From the IMG/VR virus record IMGVR_UViG_2531839662_000040, positions 1 through 45,525 of that record: a stretch of DNA of 45,525 nt. The stretch is one strand, 5' to 3'. Source of the DNA: a virus (taxonomy: Duplodnaviria; Heunggongvirae; Uroviricota; Caudoviricetes). Positions 21,985-26,830 of this stretch are shown piece after piece. The notes beneath the pieces are model-generated. The model had not been told where the DNA came from, made no database searches, and saw only the letters and a list, made by a program, of their open reading frames with translations. The first letter of the stretch is position 1. Each line of letters starts with the position of its first letter. Made by a program: the position numbers and the translations under genes.

Positions 21985-22207
21985 GGCGGCTCACGGGATG
22001 AAGTTCCCGATGGAGGATAACGCCCGGAAATACATCACCACGGAAGCGGTGACCGTTGAGAATACCGCTTATTACCGGCGCGCCGTTCAGGACGGTGACC
22101 TGATTCTGGTGAAGGATGAACCTGAAGCCACCGAGGTGGCTGAACAGGACGCCGTGCAGGTAAAAGCGAAGGTGAAGAAAGAGAAACAGGTGGGCTCCGA
22201 TGAGTGA
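21965..22207 (+). CDS. Mu gp38-like small protein (DUF2635-like)
   Basis: 80 aa immediately upstream of tail sheath. Confidence 0.45.
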   Translation: MNKMKVKAAHGMKFPMEDNARKYITTEAVTVENTAYYRRAVQDGDLILVKDEPEATEVAEQDAVQVKAKVKKEKQVGSDE

Positions 22208-23621
22208 AATTCAGTTTGACACCATTTCGGGCGGCATCCGTAAGCCCGGTGTGCATTTTGAGTTTAATACCCGACTGGCCGTTAACACGCTGCCGGGTAA
22301 TGAACAGCGTGTTCTGGTGATTGGTCCGATGCTGTCAGGCGGCACCGCCACGCCCCTGAATGCCGTCTCCGTGTATTCCGAAGACGAAGCGGATTTGTAT
22401 TTCGGGGCCGGTTCGCTGGCCGCTGCAATGGCGCGCGCGGCCATTAATGCCAACAGCTATCTGCAACTGGATGTTATCGGTATTGCAGACAGTGGCGCAG
22501 GAAAGGCGGCAACCGGCGCAGTTACCGTCAGTGGCACGGCAACCAGCAGCGGCACGCTGTCGGTATGGGTTGCCGGTGAGCAGGTCACGGTGGATGTGGA
22601 AACCGGTGATGAACCGTCGAAAATCATTCCGGCACTGGTGGAAGCAATGACGCAGACGCCATCGCTTCTGGTCACGGGGGAATACAAATCGGAAGCCTCT
22701 CAGCTGACGGTGACCACCCGGACCAAAGGGGCCTGGGGGGATGATATCACCCTGTCAGCGTCCACCACGGCAGGCGGTCTGACCGTGAGCGCCACGCCGA
22801 TGGCGAACGGCGAAATGGATCCGGATATTCAGCCCGCACTGGATGCGGTCTTTGCCGCCGGTCACAACATTCTGATTTGTCCGTTCAGTACCACGCCAGC
22901 CCTTGCTGCCCTGAAGCAGCATCTGGAGAAAACCGGGAACGCGATGGAACAGCGCGGCGCGATTGGCTGTGCGGGCTGGACGGGTAGTCTCGGAAACGGG
23001 ATCACCCTGGCAGCCGGTGTGAACAGCGGGCGCGTGTCCGTCCCCTGGTATCGCGGCTCCGTGAAGCTGCCAGCGGTGCTGGCTGCCATCTACGGCGCTG
23101 TGATGGCGGGCGAGGAAGACCCGGCGCGTCCGCTGAACTCGCTGGCGCTGTCCGGGCTGGATGTGGTCGCCATGTCACAGCGTGAAAGCCGTAACGAGCA
23201 GGAAAACGCCCTGCATAACGGCCTGACACCGGTTGAGGTTGGCCCGGGTAATACGGTGCAGATTGTGCGTGCAGTCAGTACCTACACGGTGAACGCGCAG
23301 GGCGTGGCTGATGTCTCGCTACTGGATATCACGTCCATCAGAACGCTGGATTACACCCGTAAGGCGTGCCGCGAACGTATCAGCCTCCGCTTCCCGCGTG
23401 AAAAACTCAGCACCCGCACTATCGCAAAAGTGGAAAGTGAACTGTATGACGTGCTGATCAAGCTGGAGGAAGCGGAAATTCTGGAGAACGTGGAAGCGAA
23501 CAAGGCAAAGCTGCGCGTTCAGCGAAACGGGAAAGATGCAAACCGTCTCGACTGCGTGGTTCCGGCGGATGTGGTTAACGGCCTGCACGTGTTTGCCGGT
23601 CGCATCGACATGATTTTGTAA
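22200..23621 (+). CDS. tail sheath protein (Mu L-like)
   Basis: 473 aa; followed by tube, chaperone and tape measure. Confidence 0.8.
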   Translation: MSEIQFDTISGGIRKPGVHFEFNTRLAVNTLPGNEQRVLVIGPMLSGGTATPLNAVSVYSEDEADLYFGAGSLAAAMARAAINANSYLQLDVIGIADSGAGKAATGAVTVSGTATSSGTLSVWVAGEQVTVDVETGDEPSKIIPALVEAMTQTPSLLVTGEYKSEASQLTVTTRTKGAWGDDITLSASTTAGGLTVSATPMANGEMDPDIQPALDAVFAAGHNILICPFSTTPALAALKQHLEKTGNAMEQRGAIGCAGWTGSLGNGITLAAGVNSGRVSVPWYRGSVKLPAVLAAIYGAVMAGEEDPARPLNSLALSGLDVVAMSQRESRNEQENALHNGLTPVEVGPGNTVQIVRAVSTYTVNAQGVADVSLLDITSIRTLDYTRKACRERISLRFPREKLSTRTIAKVESELYDVLIKLEEAEILENVEANKAKLRVQRNGKDANRLDCVVPADVVNGLHVFAGRIDMIL

Positions 23622-23633
23622 GGAGCGCGGTAA

Positions 23634-24008
23634 ATGTCCATTAAAGAATATGTCGGCTCGATTGTGCTGGAGGTGGACAGCCAGGAAATCGAGATCACCG
23701 ACTTCGATGTTCAGATCAACACCGGACGAAAGCTGGTCAAGACCATGAACAAAACCGGCAGGGCAAAAGGCTTTGCCCGTGGCATTGCCACTTACGATAT
23801 TTCAGTTTCGGCGGTTATCCCTGATACCAACGAGCCGGACTGGGAAAATCTGGAAGGTGTGAAAATCTCAATTTATCCGCTCAGCAACAGCGGTAAGCGC
23901 ACCTCCTATCTGGACTGCTTCACTGTTGAAGTGGGTGAGAAATACACCGTCGACAGTGAAGCGAAAATTGATATCAAAATGGCTGCACTCAGGAAGGTGA
24001 CAGGATGA
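23634..24008 (+). CDS. tail tube protein (Mu M-like)
   Basis: 124 aa directly after sheath. Confidence 0.7.
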   Translation: MSIKEYVGSIVLEVDSQEIEITDFDVQINTGRKLVKTMNKTGRAKGFARGIATYDISVSAVIPDTNEPDWENLEGVKISIYPLSNSGKRTSYLDCFTVEVGEKYTVDSEAKIDIKMAALRKVTG

Positions 24009-24388
24009 CTTTGATTAATACACAGACCGGCGAACTGTCTGATGGCGTGGTATTTAACGGCACCGTTCATAAAAACTTTGAGCTGCGTCTGCCGGTCATG
24101 CGTGATAACGGGCAGGCACTGGAAGAAACCGAAGAACGCTTTCAGACGGTGGACGGCTTCGCGGCAGATTATTACTACCGTTGTGCAGTGATGGCGGCAA
24201 CGCTGGTCCGTCTTGGGGATATCCCGCAGGAAGAACTGACGGCGGATCTGTTGCACGACAACATGACGCCGGACGATTTTAATATTCTGCTGGCATCACG
24301 CAACGTCCTGAAGGTAAAGCGGAACGGCGGGAATCCCGGCTCGCCGGACTCCGGCTCGCAGTCCTCATCCTCGGGCGCTACGGAATAA
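24005..24388 (+). CDS. tail assembly chaperone (Mu gp41-like)
   Basis: 127 aa between tube and tape measure; Ser/Gly-rich C-terminus; overlapping -1 frame open from 24283 to 24561. Confidence 0.5.
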   Translation: MTLINTQTGELSDGVVFNGTVHKNFELRLPVMRDNGQALEETEERFQTVDGFAADYYYRCAVMAATLVRLGDIPQEELTADLLHDNMTPDDFNILLASRNVLKVKRNGGNPGSPDSGSQSSSSGATE

Positions 24389-24550
24389 CCGAAGAGCAAA
24401 TCATGACCATGAGCCGTCCCGAGCTGGACGGCTGGCTTGCCGCCGTTGACAGGCTGAACGGCGGCGGCTCAGGAAGGAAGGACACCTCACAGACCACCCG
24501 CCAGTCATTTAAATCCCTCAGAAAGAAACGCAGAAAAGGTAAGCAGAAAA

Positions 24551-26830
24551 ATGGCCGGTAATTTCAAAGTTGGCATGACCCTGACTGCGAAGGACGAAGC
24601 CTCGCAGGTCCTGGAAAAGGGACAAAAACAGGTTATCAAAGCCACCGAAGGTGTAACAAAGGCAACCCGGAAAGCAGGCGCAGAGCAGAAGCGTACCGAG
24701 CAGGAAAGCATTAACAGCACGAAAAAGGCCGCAAAAGAGATACAGCGTGCCGCCCGTGCCCGGGAAACGCTCGGTATTCGTGCAGAACGCGAGATCCGGC
24801 GTGAAATTTATCTGACGGTTGCCAGTTATAACCGTCTGGCCCGCGCCGGTTTTGAATCTGCGCAGGAGCAGGAGCGCGCCATGCAGGCCACCCGGGAAAA
24901 AGCCCGGGCACTCAAGCGCGAACTGGATGGCGTTACTCAGGCTCAGATGAAGATGGCGAAAACGCCTGTTATCCCTGAACAGGGGCGTTTTGCGCGTGCA
25001 GCTGCATTTGGCAGGAATGCCGTGACAACAGGCGCTGGTATCGCAGCAGGTGCGGCTATTATGGCGCAGCCGGTCAAAAAGCAGATGAGCTACGAACGCC
25101 AGCTGGCAATGATGGCCAATACCGCTTTCAGTGATGGCGGCCTGGAGGGGCGCAGAGCTGGTCTTGAGCAGATGAAAAGCAGCATCCGTAACGCAGTGAC
25201 CTATGGTGGCGGTACGAAAGAGGATGCAGCCGAAACACTGGATGCCTTGCTGAAAGACGGCATTTCATTTGAAACAGCCAGTAAGTGGCTGCCCGAACTG
25301 ATGAAATACGCCACGGCTTCAGGCGCATCTGCAACAGACCTGGCTAAGGTGATGATTAAGGGCAAAAAGACCTTTGGATTCAGGGATGAAGATATTTCCA
25401 CCGTTCTGAATATGGCGATTGCAGCGGGCAAAGAAGGCAGCTTTGAACTGAACGACATGGCCCGCTGGTTATCCCAGCAAATGGGCGCTGCGTCAGCTGC
25501 GGGGATGAAAGGCAAGGATGATTTCGTCAAGATTCTGGCGCTGAATGAAGCTGCCGCCATCACGGCGGGAAGCAGTGATGAAGCCGGAAATAACGTGGTT
25601 AACCTGCTGGCAAAACTGACCAGTAAGGATATTGAAACAGCGGCTGCGGGGATAAATTACAACGGTAAGGGAATCGACTTTTCCGGTACGCTGACTGAAG
25701 CACGTGAGAATGGACTTAATCCGATAGACGCGCTGTCCAGCCTGATAGACAAAATCGTTGCCAGCGATAAACGCTATCAGGAGCTGCAAAAGAAACTGGC
25801 CTCCGCCCGGGATAAAGGTGAGCAGACGGCTGTTTATGATTCGATGGCAACACTCCTTGAAGGCTTTGGTGTCGGAAAGCTGATTGCAGACCGTCAGGCG
25901 TTGATGGCGTTGTTAGCCTACCGTAACAACCCTGAATACCGGAAAAAGGTTGAAGACGCGATTAATCAGCAGCGCACCCTGCCGGAAGGTCAGCGCGCGG
26001 GTGATGTGGATTTTAAATTCATATCAGATACGAATGATTTTAAAACCGAACAGGCTAAAAACACGCTTGAATTTTCACAAATGGACAGCGTGAAAAAGCT
26101 GGCGGATGCATCCGGTACTGTGGCCGATGCCATAAGCTGGGCGGGTGAAAAATTTCCGGGACTGACCACAGCAGTCGTGGGTGCCACGACCGCCATTGAA
26201 GCGATGACCGCAGCAGCCCTGACATGGGCCGGGATCAAAATCCTGACCGGGGGTAAACCCGGTGGCAAGGCTGGCGAGGTTGTCGGTGATGTCATTGAAA
26301 ACACGGTCAAAAAAGGCAAAGGATTTAAATTCCCCGGCATTGCCGGTGGCCTGCTTTCTTTCGGTAGCACCGTTACGGCACTGGCCACTGCAACCAGCCC
26401 GGAAGAAGACGCCGCCGTCGAAGGAAGCGAGGAGCGCTGGAAAAATATACGGGCTAAATATCCTCAGTGGCTGATTGATGCTGCCCGTGAAAAATATCAG
26501 CCGTGGTGGCAGTTTGGCGAAGGTTACTCAACAGAAAACGAGAAATGGATCCAGCAGTATCTTGACGAACTGAAAAAAACCGGGGTTATCGCCGGTGATT
26601 CTCTGCCAACACCAGAACAAGTCCGACAGCAAGCCGGAATGGCAGCGTCTGAAACGGCATCAAAGCAACCCGGACGCATCACCCAGCCGGAATACCTCAC
26701 GCACTGGGGACCACCTGCCAGCCCCATTAATTTCACCACACAACTGGTGCTCGATGGTCAGGTCGTGGCGGAAGCGGTGAATAAATACAACCTTCAGGAC
26801 GGCAACAGAGGCACGGGAGGAACTTACTGA
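24551..26830 (+). CDS. tail tape measure protein (Mu-type)
   Basis: 759 aa, Ala/Gly-rich with predicted coiled regions. Confidence 0.8.
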   Translation: MAGNFKVGMTLTAKDEASQVLEKGQKQVIKATEGVTKATRKAGAEQKRTEQESINSTKKAAKEIQRAARARETLGIRAEREIRREIYLTVASYNRLARAGFESAQEQERAMQATREKARALKRELDGVTQAQMKMAKTPVIPEQGRFARAAAFGRNAVTTGAGIAAGAAIMAQPVKKQMSYERQLAMMANTAFSDGGLEGRRAGLEQMKSSIRNAVTYGGGTKEDAAETLDALLKDGISFETASKWLPELMKYATASGASATDLAKVMIKGKKTFGFRDEDISTVLNMAIAAGKEGSFELNDMARWLSQQMGAASAAGMKGKDDFVKILALNEAAAITAGSSDEAGNNVVNLLAKLTSKDIETAAAGINYNGKGIDFSGTLTEARENGLNPIDALSSLIDKIVASDKRYQELQKKLASARDKGEQTAVYDSMATLLEGFGVGKLIADRQALMALLAYRNNPEYRKKVEDAINQQRTLPEGQRAGDVDFKFISDTNDFKTEQAKNTLEFSQMDSVKKLADASGTVADAISWAGEKFPGLTTAVVGATTAIEAMTAAALTWAGIKILTGGKPGGKAGEVVGDVIENTVKKGKGFKFPGIAGGLLSFGSTVTALATATSPEEDAAVEGSEERWKNIRAKYPQWLIDAAREKYQPWWQFGEGYSTENEKWIQQYLDELKKTGVIAGDSLPTPEQVRQQAGMAASETASKQPGRITQPEYLTHWGPPASPINFTTQLVLDGQVVAEAVNKYNLQDGNRGTGGTY

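What the first reader, a model, noticed from the sequence alone, without database searches (positions are those of the whole stretch)
24283..24561. Possible -1 frameshift extension of the Mu-type tail chaperone
The -1 frame relative to gp41-like ORF 24005..24388 is open from 24283 across the gp41 stop to 24561, where it overlaps the tape measure start. It encodes a protein-like sequence (...ITEEQIMTMSRPELDGWLAAVDRLNGGG... with a basic tail). This position, between tube and tape measure, is where phages commonly make a chaperone by programmed frameshift. I found no canonical X XXY YYZ heptamer, so the shift site, if real, is non-canonical; alternatively a 53-aa ORF starts independently at ATG 24403.
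Basis: inference. Interest (0 to 1): 0.4.

Follow-up and report, generated by a model that had tools for sequence, protein, structure and literature searches.

The report
Frameshifted tail chaperone of Mu-like prophage
The Mu-like prophage in this E. coli window almost certainly makes a long form of its tail assembly chaperone by a programmed -1 ribosomal frameshift, which is an ordinary phage strategy, but here it uses a weakened slip site (G GUA AAG) where its relatives have the classic A AAA AAG.

Summary
The -1 frame is open from 24283 to 24561, across the stop of the tail chaperone gene (24005-24388), and it ends 11 nt inside the tape measure gene.

- In about 26 close and about 55 distant relatives, the -1 frame stays open and its protein sequence is conserved from one point onward: the codons GTA AAG at 24314-24319.
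- Third-codon-position variation switches from the chaperone frame to the -1 frame at that point, 28 codons upstream of ATG 24403.
- Every distant relative found has the dnaX-type heptamer A_AAA_AAG there. The -1 frame often opens exactly at that site.
- Five distant loci lack the conserved Met, and two of them have no start codon anywhere in the extension.

So a 185-aa fusion (105 + 80 aa) is made alongside the 127-aa short form, as with lambda G/GT, P2 E/E+E' and Mu gp41/FS-gp41.

In the window's clade the heptamer has degenerated to G_GNA_AAG. This keeps only the A_AAG tetramer, a known hexanucleotide-type site. It is followed by a 22-nt stretch that is invariant at the nucleotide level and could be a stimulatory hairpin; that is unproven.

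The separately annotated 52-aa ORF is most likely an annotation artefact. This is a new member of a known kind, of modest interest.

The parts
23634..24008 (+). Tail tube gene. Its stop overlaps the chaperone start (ATGA at 24005-24008).
   Evidence: ORF. phrog_185 tail tube protein, E 3e-35. It follows the sheath gene 22200-23621, which has Pfam sheath domains.
24005..24388 (+). Tail assembly chaperone, short form made by standard decoding (127 aa). It has a folded domain of about residues 6-106 and a disordered Ser/Pro/Gly tail.
   Evidence: phrog_508 tail assembly chaperone, E 1.9e-40. AlphaFold2 pLDDT is 88-94 in every 10-residue block from residue 11 to 100 (79 for residues 1-10, 80 for 101-110, 46 for 111-120); residues 113-127 are below 50. 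The best PDB fold match is the HK97 tail assembly chaperone 2ob9 (E 0.07, probability 0.92), and Mu FS-gp41 is among the BFVD matches. No Pfam match.
24313..24319 (+). Proposed -1 shift site G_GTA_AAG. The zero-frame codons are GTA 24314-16 and AAG 24317-19. tRNA-Lys slips from AAG to AAA (24316-18).
   Evidence: A_AAG is invariant in all relatives. The site is G_GTA/GCA/GGA_AAG in the window's clade and A_AAA_AAG in all distant relatives. Conservation of the -1 frame begins at the next codon. A_AA.G is the most shift-prone tetramer in E. coli (PMC4066793). NNA_AAG sites are used by IS1222 (PMC5009743).
24319..24561 (+). The -1 frame extension (80 aa, AERRES...KNGR, plus a TAA stop). Joined to residues 1-105 it gives a 185-aa fusion, the GT-like long form. 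It has a hydrophobic/helical core, LAGLRLAVLILGRYGITEEQIMTMSRPELDGWLAAVDRLNG, and a Lys/Arg-rich C-terminus.
   Evidence: Translation. Conserved in about 80 loci. Wobble phase analysis. phrog_3114 match, E 9e-19. Weak profile match to the P2 E' segment (hhalign E 0.006, probability 6%).
24325..24346 (+). Candidate stimulatory hairpin, unproven. The stem is CGGCGGG/CUCGCCG with an 8-nt loop, and it starts 5 nt 3' of the AAG. It lies within the nucleotide-invariant 22-mer GGCGGGAATCCCGGCTCGCCGG (24326-24347).
   Evidence: The 22-mer is invariant in 10 clade sequences whose chaperones are 54-100% identical. None of the 7 -1-frame wobble columns inside it varies, against 31 of 41 elsewhere (Fisher p = 2.6e-4). 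The hairpin is predicted at -8.8 to -17.3 kcal/mol, but the z-score is only -0.2 to -0.6. There is no covariation. The 22-mer is absent from relatives that have A_AAA_AAG.
24403..24561 (+). The 52-aa ORF that RefSeq annotates as a separate hypothetical protein (WP_000178828.1). It is most likely just the C-terminal two-thirds of the frameshift extension.
   Evidence: Annotation. Conservation of the -1 frame extends 28 codons upstream of this ATG. L066 and L068 have no start codon in the extension. L122, L123 and L142 have Leu in place of the Met.
24551..26830 (+). Tape measure protein gene. Its ATG lies 8 nt before the stop of the -1 extension.
   Evidence: ORF. PF10145 PhageMin_Tail, E 1.4e-20. 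RefSeq calls it 'phage tail tape measure protein'.

Best explanation
The gene at 24005-24388 encodes the tail assembly chaperone of a Mu-like contractile-tail prophage.

**Two products.** Most ribosomes read it to the stop at 24386-24388 and make a 127-aa protein. That protein has a folded domain of about 105 residues and a disordered 22-residue tail. A minority of ribosomes slip back one nucleotide when Lys codon AAG (24317-24319) is in the A site and GUA is in the P site. tRNA-Lys re-pairs with AAA (24316-24318). Reading then continues with GCG at 24319 in the -1 frame, to the TAA at 24559-24561. The product is a 185-aa fusion: chaperone domain (105 aa) plus an 80-aa T-like extension.

**Likely function.** By analogy with lambda gpG/gpGT and P2 gpE/gpE+E', both forms bind the tape measure protein. 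The extension of the rare long form recruits the tube protein, so a fixed ratio of the two forms governs tail assembly.

**The shift site.** In this lineage it is a degenerate descendant of A_AAA_AAG. It keeps only the A_AAG tetramer, as an NNA_AAG hexanucleotide-type site. The invariant GC-rich hairpin 5 nt downstream possibly boosts shifting.

**Shown versus inferred.**
- Shown here: the ORF geometry, the conservation, the switch in codon phase, the homology of the site to A_AAA_AAG, and the chaperone-like fold and position.
- Inferred: that slippage actually happens, its efficiency, the role of the hairpin, and the assembly function of the two forms.
For: 1. **Position.** The gene order is sheath, tube, chaperone, tape measure. 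The ORF matches phrog_508 'tail assembly chaperone' at E 1.9e-40.

2. **Open frame.** The -1 frame is open from the site to a stop at the tape measure start in all 26 first-round relatives, whose chaperones are 37-100% identical. The same holds in the IMG/VR loci (27) and metagenome loci (34) found with the extension alone, apart from one abnormal locus (L059) and two that run off the contig end.

3. **Where conservation begins.** The -1 frame protein is conserved only from the codon after AAG onward (AERRESRLAGLRLAVLILGRYGI...). Upstream of that point the -1 frame is not conserved and has stops at varying places.

4. **Phase switch.** Mean pairwise differences at zero-frame codon positions 1/2/3 are:
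   - 0.28/0.23/0.50 upstream of the site;
   - 0.13/0.33/0.17 between the 22-mer and the zero-frame stop, all upstream of ATG 24403;
   - 0.15/0.36/0.17 after that stop.

   Zero-frame position 2 is -1 frame position 3. The distant clade shows the same pattern: 0.31/0.26/0.56 upstream, then 0.30/0.46/0.27.

5. **Canonical heptamer in relatives.** All distant relatives have A_AAA_AAG in the correct frame at the aligned codons. In most, a TAA immediately 5' means the -1 frame opens exactly at the slip site. L025, a member of the window's clade, has the canonical G_GGA_AAG.

6. **No start codon.** There is no ATG, GTG or TTG in the -1 frame between 24283 and 24403. L066 and L068 have no start codon anywhere in the extension. 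L122, L123 and L142 lack the conserved Met.

7. **Dispensable zero-frame tail.** After the site, the zero-frame tail varies from 10 to 31 residues and is not conserved across the family. It is predicted to be disordered.

8. **Precedent.**
   - Mu has an annotated, verified -2 frameshift at this gene position.
   - P2 E+E' has a -1 shift.
   - The lambda G-T mechanism and the use of A_AAG/NNA_AAG sites are described in PMC5009743.
   - A_AA.G is the best tetramer in E. coli, reaching 5.6% with a stimulator (PMC4066793).
Against: - There is no experimental evidence for this locus: no junction peptide and no reporter assay.
- G_GUA_AAG is not a canonical heptamer. P-site tRNA-Val would re-pair with GGU, with a mismatch in the middle position. 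According to PMC4066793, tetramer sites are near background without a stimulator.
- The proposed stimulator is not statistically distinguishable from shuffled sequence (z = -0.2 to -0.6) and shows no covariation.
- A Met is conserved at extension position 31 in most relatives, and a weak AAGAG lies 6 nt before ATG 24403. Some independent initiation therefore cannot be excluded.
- The similarity of the extension to P2 E' is weak (probability 6%). The chaperone domain has no Pfam match. Fold matches are all at E of 0.004 or weaker.
Confidence: 0.85

Rival explanations
1. The downstream frame is an independent small gene, as RefSeq annotates it: a 52-aa protein started at ATG 24403 (or 24409), with no frameshifting.
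For: PGAP calls it a separate CDS, WP_000178828.1. GenBank does the same for the Klebsiella phage. PHROGs has a 56-position family, phrog_3114, that starts at this Met. The Met is conserved in most relatives, and AAGAG lies 6 nt upstream of ATG 24403.
Against: The 28 -1-frame codons upstream of the ATG are conserved as protein, show -1 frame wobble variation, and contain no start codon. L066 and L068 have no start codon in the whole extension. L122, L123 and L142 have Leu instead of Met. The SD-like sequence is not conserved in position: it is 12 nt away in L025 and 0-1 nt away in L001. P2 E' has a Met at the aligned place, in a fusion its record annotates as made by a -1 frameshift. The slip tetramer is invariant, and the distant relatives carry A_AAA_AAG.
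Confidence: 0.05
2. Both routes operate. The fusion is made by frameshifting, and a free C-terminal peptide is also started internally at ATG 24403 or 24409.
For: The Met at extension position 31 is conserved in most lineages. A weak SD-like AAGAG sits 6 nt before ATG 24403 in the window's clade.
Against: The SD-like element is inconsistent across relatives, and several lineages lack the Met. No precedent was found in the G/GT literature read here (PMC5009743).
Confidence: 0.12
3. The frameshift has decayed in this clade. Loss of A_AAA_AAG abolished slippage, and the overlap is a relic that is no longer expressed as a fusion.
For: The window's heptamer is non-canonical. Tetramer sites are near background without a stimulator (PMC4066793).
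Against: Within the clade (chaperones 54-100% identical) the -1 frame upstream of the ATG has no stops. It is 78-86% identical as protein and varies mostly at its own wobble positions. A_AAG is invariant, and the base before the P-site codon is always G. One clade member has the canonical G_GGA_AAG. Such purifying selection is not expected on a relic.
Confidence: 0.04
4. The fusion arises from transcriptional slippage by RNA polymerase, not from ribosomal slippage.
For: Distant relatives carry a run of 8 A. Homopolymer runs can cause transcript slippage (topic reviewed in PMC5009743).
Against: The window has only AAA at the site (GGTAAAG), which is too short for polymerase slippage. The conserved feature across the family is A_AAG in a fixed reading frame, which is a ribosomal requirement.
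Confidence: 0.02

Closest known systems
Bacteriophage lambda gpG / gpGT tail assembly chaperones (programmed -1 frameshift at G_GGA_AAG)
   Same: The gene sits immediately before the tape measure gene. There is a short abundant form and a rare -1 frame fusion. The A-site codon is AAG, slipping to AAA. One member of the window's clade (L025) has the very same heptamer, G_GGA_AAG. The mechanism and role are described in PMC5009743.
   Different: No sequence similarity was detected: no Pfam match. The window's phage has a contractile tail. The window's heptamer is G_GUA_AAG, so the P-site tRNA cannot re-pair fully.
Bacteriophage P2 gpE / gpE+E' (-1 frameshift at T_TTT_TTG; Pfam PF06528 Phage_P2_GpE)
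   Same: The myovirus gene order is the same: sheath, tube, chaperone, tape measure. It uses a -1 shift, and the extension ends by overlapping the tape measure start. The window's extension aligns weakly with the PF06528 segment: YGITEEQIMTMSRPELDGWL against FHWPPSELYPMSLTELITW.
   Different: The similarity is not significant (hhalign probability 6%; no Pfam hit). The slip heptamer is different. The window's extension carries a long Lys/Arg-rich tail that P2 E' lacks.
Bacteriophage Mu gp41 / FS-gp41 (UniProt P0DJY4; Pfam PF23746 Gp41_Mu)
   Same: The genome type is the same (Mu-like structural module: DUF1834, DUF2635, sheath, tube, chaperone, tape measure, DNA circularization protein). The fusion is of similar size (188 vs 185 aa). 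There is a structural match at TMq 0.54.
   Different: Mu shifts by -2, at CGG GGG CGA, into the other frame. The window protein does not match PF23746 or PF10109. The extensions show no similarity.
Hexanucleotide/tetranucleotide -1 shift sites NNA_AAG (IS1222 G_CGA_AAG; B. subtilis cdd A_CGA_AAG) and dnaX A_AAA_AAG
   Same: The window's G_GUA_AAG has the same form as these sites: only tRNA-Lys can re-pair perfectly. Its relatives use the dnaX heptamer A_AAA_AAG (PMC5009743, PMC4066793).
   Different: Those sites are in a transposase, a cytidine deaminase and a polymerase subunit, not in phage tail genes. Their stimulators (pseudoknots, an SD-like sequence plus a hairpin) have been shown by experiment. 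Here the stimulator is only a candidate.

Membership tests
Tail assembly chaperone pair made by programmed frameshift (lambda G/GT type; Xu, Hendrix & Duda 2004) | The gene lies between the major tail/tube gene and the tape measure gene | tested here: met
   Tube gene 23634-24008 (phrog_185), chaperone 24005-24388, tape measure 24551-26830 (PF10145).
Tail assembly chaperone pair made by programmed frameshift (lambda G/GT type; Xu, Hendrix & Duda 2004) | A second ORF overlaps the 3' end in another frame, has no start of its own, and ends at or near the tape measure start | tested here: met
   The -1 frame is open 24283-24561. It has no ATG, GTG or TTG before 24403, and its stop is 8 nt after the tape measure ATG. 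The same geometry holds in about 80 related loci.
Tail assembly chaperone pair made by programmed frameshift (lambda G/GT type; Xu, Hendrix & Duda 2004) | A slippery sequence in the overlap, conserved in position | tested here: met
   A_AAG is invariant. The site is A_AAA_AAG in all distant relatives, G_GGA_AAG in L025, and G_GTA_AAG in the window, which is non-canonical at the P-site codon.
Tail assembly chaperone pair made by programmed frameshift (lambda G/GT type; Xu, Hendrix & Duda 2004) | Purifying selection on the second frame begins at the slip site | tested here: met
   Codon-phase switch and per-frame BLOSUM/identity scores.
Tail assembly chaperone pair made by programmed frameshift (lambda G/GT type; Xu, Hendrix & Duda 2004) | Both products are made in a fixed ratio, and both are needed for tail assembly | not testable with these tools
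   This needs protein detection and genetics.
Tail assembly chaperone pair made by programmed frameshift (lambda G/GT type; Xu, Hendrix & Duda 2004) | Chaperone (gpG-like) fold of the N-terminal domain | tested here: inconclusive
   The AF2 model is confident (mean pLDDT 83.9). The best PDB match is the HK97 tail assembly chaperone, and BFVD matches include tail assembly chaperones and Mu FS-gp41. All are at E of 0.004 or weaker, with TM 0.4-0.56.
Pfam PF23746 Gp41_Mu / PF10109 Phage_TAC_7 (Mu gp41, P2 E family) | A sequence match above the Pfam gathering score | tested here: not met
   No Pfam family matches at E up to 10 for the fusion, or up to 0.1 for the short form. Mu gp41 scores 119.5 bits in the same search.
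Pfam PF06528 Phage_P2_GpE (the E' / T-like extension) | A sequence match of the extension | tested here: not met
   No Pfam hit. hhalign against P2 E' gives E 0.006 and probability 6% over 28 columns. This is a resemblance only.
PHROG phrog_508 (tail assembly chaperone) and phrog_3114 (unknown function) | A profile match | tested here: met
   phrog_508 at E 1.9e-40 for the short form. phrog_3114 at E 9e-19 for the part of the extension from Met 24403 onward.
-1 frameshift signal with a downstream RNA stimulator | A stable structure 5-9 nt 3' of the slip site, supported by covariation or by stability above background | tested here: inconclusive
   A hairpin is predicted 5 nt downstream. The 22-mer is more invariant than coding needs explain (p = 2.6e-4). 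However, the z-score is -0.2 to -0.6, there are no compensatory changes, and there is no Rfam match.

The most novel reading that the evidence does not exclude
In this enterobacterial clade the ancestral strong heptamer A_AAA_AAG was replaced by a weak hexanucleotide-type site (G_GUA/GCA_AAG). In compensation, the clade acquired a nucleotide-invariant GC-rich hairpin or pseudoknot (24325-24346 and flanks) that restores the required ratio of short to long chaperone. This would be a natural case of co-evolution between a slip site and its stimulator, in a phage tail gene. It would also be the first tail-chaperone frameshift that relies on single-tRNA (A-site only) slippage.
Probability: 0.3. Interest if true: 0.45.

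Novelty: new member of a known kind. Interest (0 to 1): 0.3.

Why it matters
**Annotation.** RefSeq annotates this locus as three hypothetical proteins, and it occurs in 56 of 5426 complete E. coli genomes searched. GenBank treats the Klebsiella phage the same way, and PHROGs lists the extension as a family of unknown function (phrog_3114). Recognising the fusion gives the correct gene model for a whole family of Mu-like prophages in Enterobacteriaceae and Ralstonia.

**Mechanism.** The family offers a natural series of slip sites at one homologous position: A_AAA_AAG, G_GGA_AAG, G_GCA_AAG and G_GUA_AAG. A candidate stimulator is present only with the G_GNA_AAG sites of the window's clade (which include the canonical G_GGA_AAG of L025). 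That would be a convenient system for asking how phages tune the chaperone ratio.

Otherwise this is an expected feature of long-tailed phages.

Tried and rejected
- **DNA search of GenBank phages.** Only short Ralstonia matches came back, so there is no close sequenced phage.
- **Pfam.** No match for either frame.
- **PDB sequence search with the family profile.** Nothing found.
- **RNA folding of the region 3' of the slip site.** The hairpins are no more stable than in dinucleotide shuffles.
- **Alignment folding.** No covariation, because the element is invariant.
- **Rfam.** Only a chance sub-threshold hit on the opposite strand.
- **Metagenome scan for variants of the 22-mer.** This was aimed at intermediate forms that could test the hairpin. 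Every new sequence either had the identical 22-mer or belonged to the A_AAA_AAG group without it.
- **Other slip sites in the overlap.**
  - T_TTT at about 24276-24279 runs straight into the -1 frame TAA at 24280-24282.
  - G_GGC at 24370-24373 would skip the conserved AERRES...LILG segment and is a poorly shifting tetramer (PMC4066793).
- **Upstream SD-like stimulator.** GAAGG abuts the site (24310-24314). That is too close for the 10-14 nt spacing known from dnaX, and it is not conserved in L004 or L001.
- **Extension versus the Mu extension.** No similarity.
- **Xu et al. 2004.** The paper (PMID 15469818) is not in the library. Statements about it rest on the Mu GenBank annotation, on PMC2628397 and on PMC5009743.
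Full report
**1. What is in the sequence**

The window matches a Mu-like prophage of E. coli UMNF18 at 100% identity.

Around the finding, the + strand carries these genes:
- a sheath gene, 22200-23621, with Pfam sheath domains;
- a tube gene, 23634-24008, matching phrog_185 at E 3e-35;
- a 127-aa ORF, 24005-24388, matching phrog_508 'tail assembly chaperone' at E 1.9e-40;
- a tape measure gene, 24551-26830, matching PF10145.

The -1 frame relative to the chaperone has a TAA at 24280-24282. It is then open to the TAA at 24559-24561. The independent ORF from ATG 24403 is 52 aa. RefSeq annotates it as a separate hypothetical protein.

**2. Relatives**

The chaperone has homologues at 54-98% identity in Escherichia, Citrobacter, Yersinia, Enterobacter and Trabulsiella. 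I collected loci from several sources:
- 23 IMG/VR loci and one Intestinirhabdus locus;
- a Klebsiella phage at 37% identity;
- IMG/VR loci and 34 metagenome loci, found by searching with the -1 frame peptide alone; 27 of the IMG/VR loci were more distant and not in the first set;
- a Ralstonia phage.

In nearly all of them the -1 frame is open from the homologous point to a stop at the tape measure start. The exceptions are L059, where the extension ends early, and two loci cut off by the end of the contig.

**3. Where the second frame becomes coding**

The -1 frame peptide is conserved only from the codon after AAG (24317-24319) onward. In the window's clade it reads AERRESRLAGLRLAVLILGRYGITEEQIM..., with conservative substitutions (L/I/A/T, Y/C/F, T/S). 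Upstream of that point the -1 frame is unconserved and has stops at various places.

The phase of nucleotide variation confirms this. The table gives mean pairwise differences at zero-frame codon positions 1/2/3. Zero-frame position 2 is the wobble position of the -1 frame.

| Region | Window's clade | Distant clade |
|---|---|---|
| 30 (28 in the distant clade) codons upstream of the site | 0.28 / 0.23 / 0.50 | 0.31 / 0.26 / 0.56 |
| After the site, before ATG 24403 | 0.13 / 0.33 / 0.17 | 0.30 / 0.46 / 0.27 |
| After the zero-frame stop | 0.15 / 0.36 / 0.17 | not separated |

So 28 codons upstream of ATG 24403 are under selection in the -1 frame, and that stretch contains no ATG, GTG or TTG.

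**4. The shift site**

In the window, the zero-frame codons are CTG AAG GTA AAG CGG. This makes the heptamer G_GTA_AAG at 24313-24319. Clade members have G_GTA_AAG, G_GCA_AAG or G_GGA_AAG.

Every relative outside this clade has NTN or GCN followed by AAA AAA AAG or A AAA AAG. That is the dnaX-type A_AAA_AAG, in the correct frame at the aligned codons. This covers more than 40 distinct sequences, including the Klebsiella and Ralstonia phages. In most of these relatives the preceding T creates a TAA in the -1 frame, so the -1 frame opens exactly at the slip site.

The family's shift site is therefore established by comparison. The window carries a degenerate version that keeps the A_AAG tetramer.

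From the literature:
- A_AA.G is the most shift-prone tetramer in E. coli. It reaches up to 5.6% with a strong pseudoknot and is near background without one (PMC4066793).
- NNA_AAG sites are used naturally, for example G_CGA_AAG in IS1222.
- The efficiency of NNA_AAG sites depends on the wobble capacity of the tRNA reading the NNA codon (PMC5009743).
- From general knowledge, not tested here: the GUA and GCA codons are read in E. coli by cmo5U34 tRNAs, which have extended wobble.

**5. The independent-ORF alternative**

- L066 and L068 have no start codon anywhere in the 75-78-codon extension.
- L122, L123 and L142 have Leu in place of the otherwise conserved Met.
- The SD-like AAGAG is not conserved in spacing.
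- P2 E', which its record annotates as part of a -1 frameshift fusion, has a Met at the weakly aligned position.

Independent initiation as the sole route is therefore very unlikely. A minor internal start cannot be excluded.

**6. Products**

The short form is 127 aa. AlphaFold2, run with 26 homologues, gives a confident fold for about residues 6-106 and a disordered tail, with pLDDT below 50 for residues 113-127. The folded domain thus ends at the slip site, which is residue 105.

Across the family, the zero-frame tail after the site ranges from 10 to 31 residues and is not conserved.

The long form is 105 + 80 = 185 aa, close to Mu FS-gp41 at 188 aa.

Fold searches give weak matches that point the same way:
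- HK97 tail assembly chaperone 2ob9 is the top PDB hit (E 0.07, probability 0.92);
- tail assembly chaperones and Mu FS-gp41 appear among the BFVD hits.

**7. Candidate stimulator**

In the window's clade the 22 nt GGCGGGAATCCCGGCTCGCCGG (24326-24347) are invariant in ten sequences whose chaperones have diverged to 54% identity. None of the seven -1-frame wobble positions inside the 22-mer varies, against 31 of 41 elsewhere in the extension (Fisher p = 2.6e-4).

Points in favour of an RNA-level constraint:
- The zero-frame tail appears dispensable in the wider family, so protein coding alone does not readily explain the invariance.
- A 7-bp hairpin, CGGCGGG/CUCGCCG at 24325-24346, starts 5 nt after the AAG.
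- The 22-mer occurs in IMG/VR only in this clade.
- It is absent from all relatives that have A_AAA_AAG.

Points against:
- The predicted stability is not above shuffled controls (z = -0.2 to -0.6).
- There is no covariation.
- No Rfam family matches.
- Selection on the zero-frame peptide GGNPGSP cannot be excluded.

This part remains a hypothesis.

**8. Comparison with known systems**

Functionally, this is the conserved tail-chaperone frameshift of long-tailed phages: lambda G/GT, P2 E/E+E' and Mu gp41/FS-gp41 (PMC5009743; annotations).

It is not a sequence member of the Mu gp41 or P2 E Pfam families. It also differs from Mu in the direction of the shift, which is -1 here and -2 in Mu.

The frameshift is not annotated for this family in RefSeq, in the only GenBank phage that carries it, or in PHROGs.

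**9. Verdict**

- This is a new member of a known kind. It has a mildly unusual tetramer/hexamer-type slip site derived from A_AAA_AAG, and a possible compensating stimulator.
- Interest is modest.

Noticed in passing
window 24326-24347: A 22-nt island, GGCGGGAATCCCGGCTCGCCGG, is invariant across clade members whose flanking codons vary freely. It is found in IMG/VR only in this gene. It may be a frameshift stimulator, or it may reflect selection on both overlapping peptides.
   Followed up: partly
window 24005-24008 and 24551-24561: The tube stop overlaps the chaperone start (ATGA). The tape measure ATG lies 8 nt before the stop of the -1 extension. This suggests translational coupling along the tube, chaperone and tape measure genes.
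   Followed up: no
window 24403-24561; phrog_3114; WP_000178828.1: Gene callers and PHROGs treat the C-terminal two-thirds of the frameshift extension as a separate family of small proteins of unknown function. This is probably a systematic annotation artefact for this phage family.
   Followed up: partly
window 24500-24558 (extension C-terminus KSLRKKRRKGKQKNGR): A Lys/Arg-rich C-terminal tail (KSxRxKxxKGK..R) is conserved in nearly all relatives of the extension. P2 E' has no such tail. Its role is unknown.
   Followed up: no
L059 (IMGVR_UViG_2851255004_000003) 910-1141: In this relative the chaperone frame is interrupted (only 30 codons open) and the extension ends early at 61 aa. Its near-identical sibling L058 is intact. 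This may be a degraded prophage or an assembly error.
   Followed up: no
protein P0012 (E. coli ACLBOM_00560), alignment A1 columns 57-81: This chaperone homologue replaces YYYRCAVMAATLVRL with an unrelated stretch, GPLLPLCGNGGNAGPS. That looks like a pair of compensating indels, or a sequencing error, within the gene.
   Followed up: no
L085 (Ralstonia phage YO374_1, ON170342) 1177-1720: This unannotated betaproteobacterial phage record has the same architecture. A_AAA_AAG lies at 1494-1500, and a -1 extension (...AGITEAQLRTMSLAEVE...) ends 14 nt before the tape measure ATG at 1720.
   Followed up: partly
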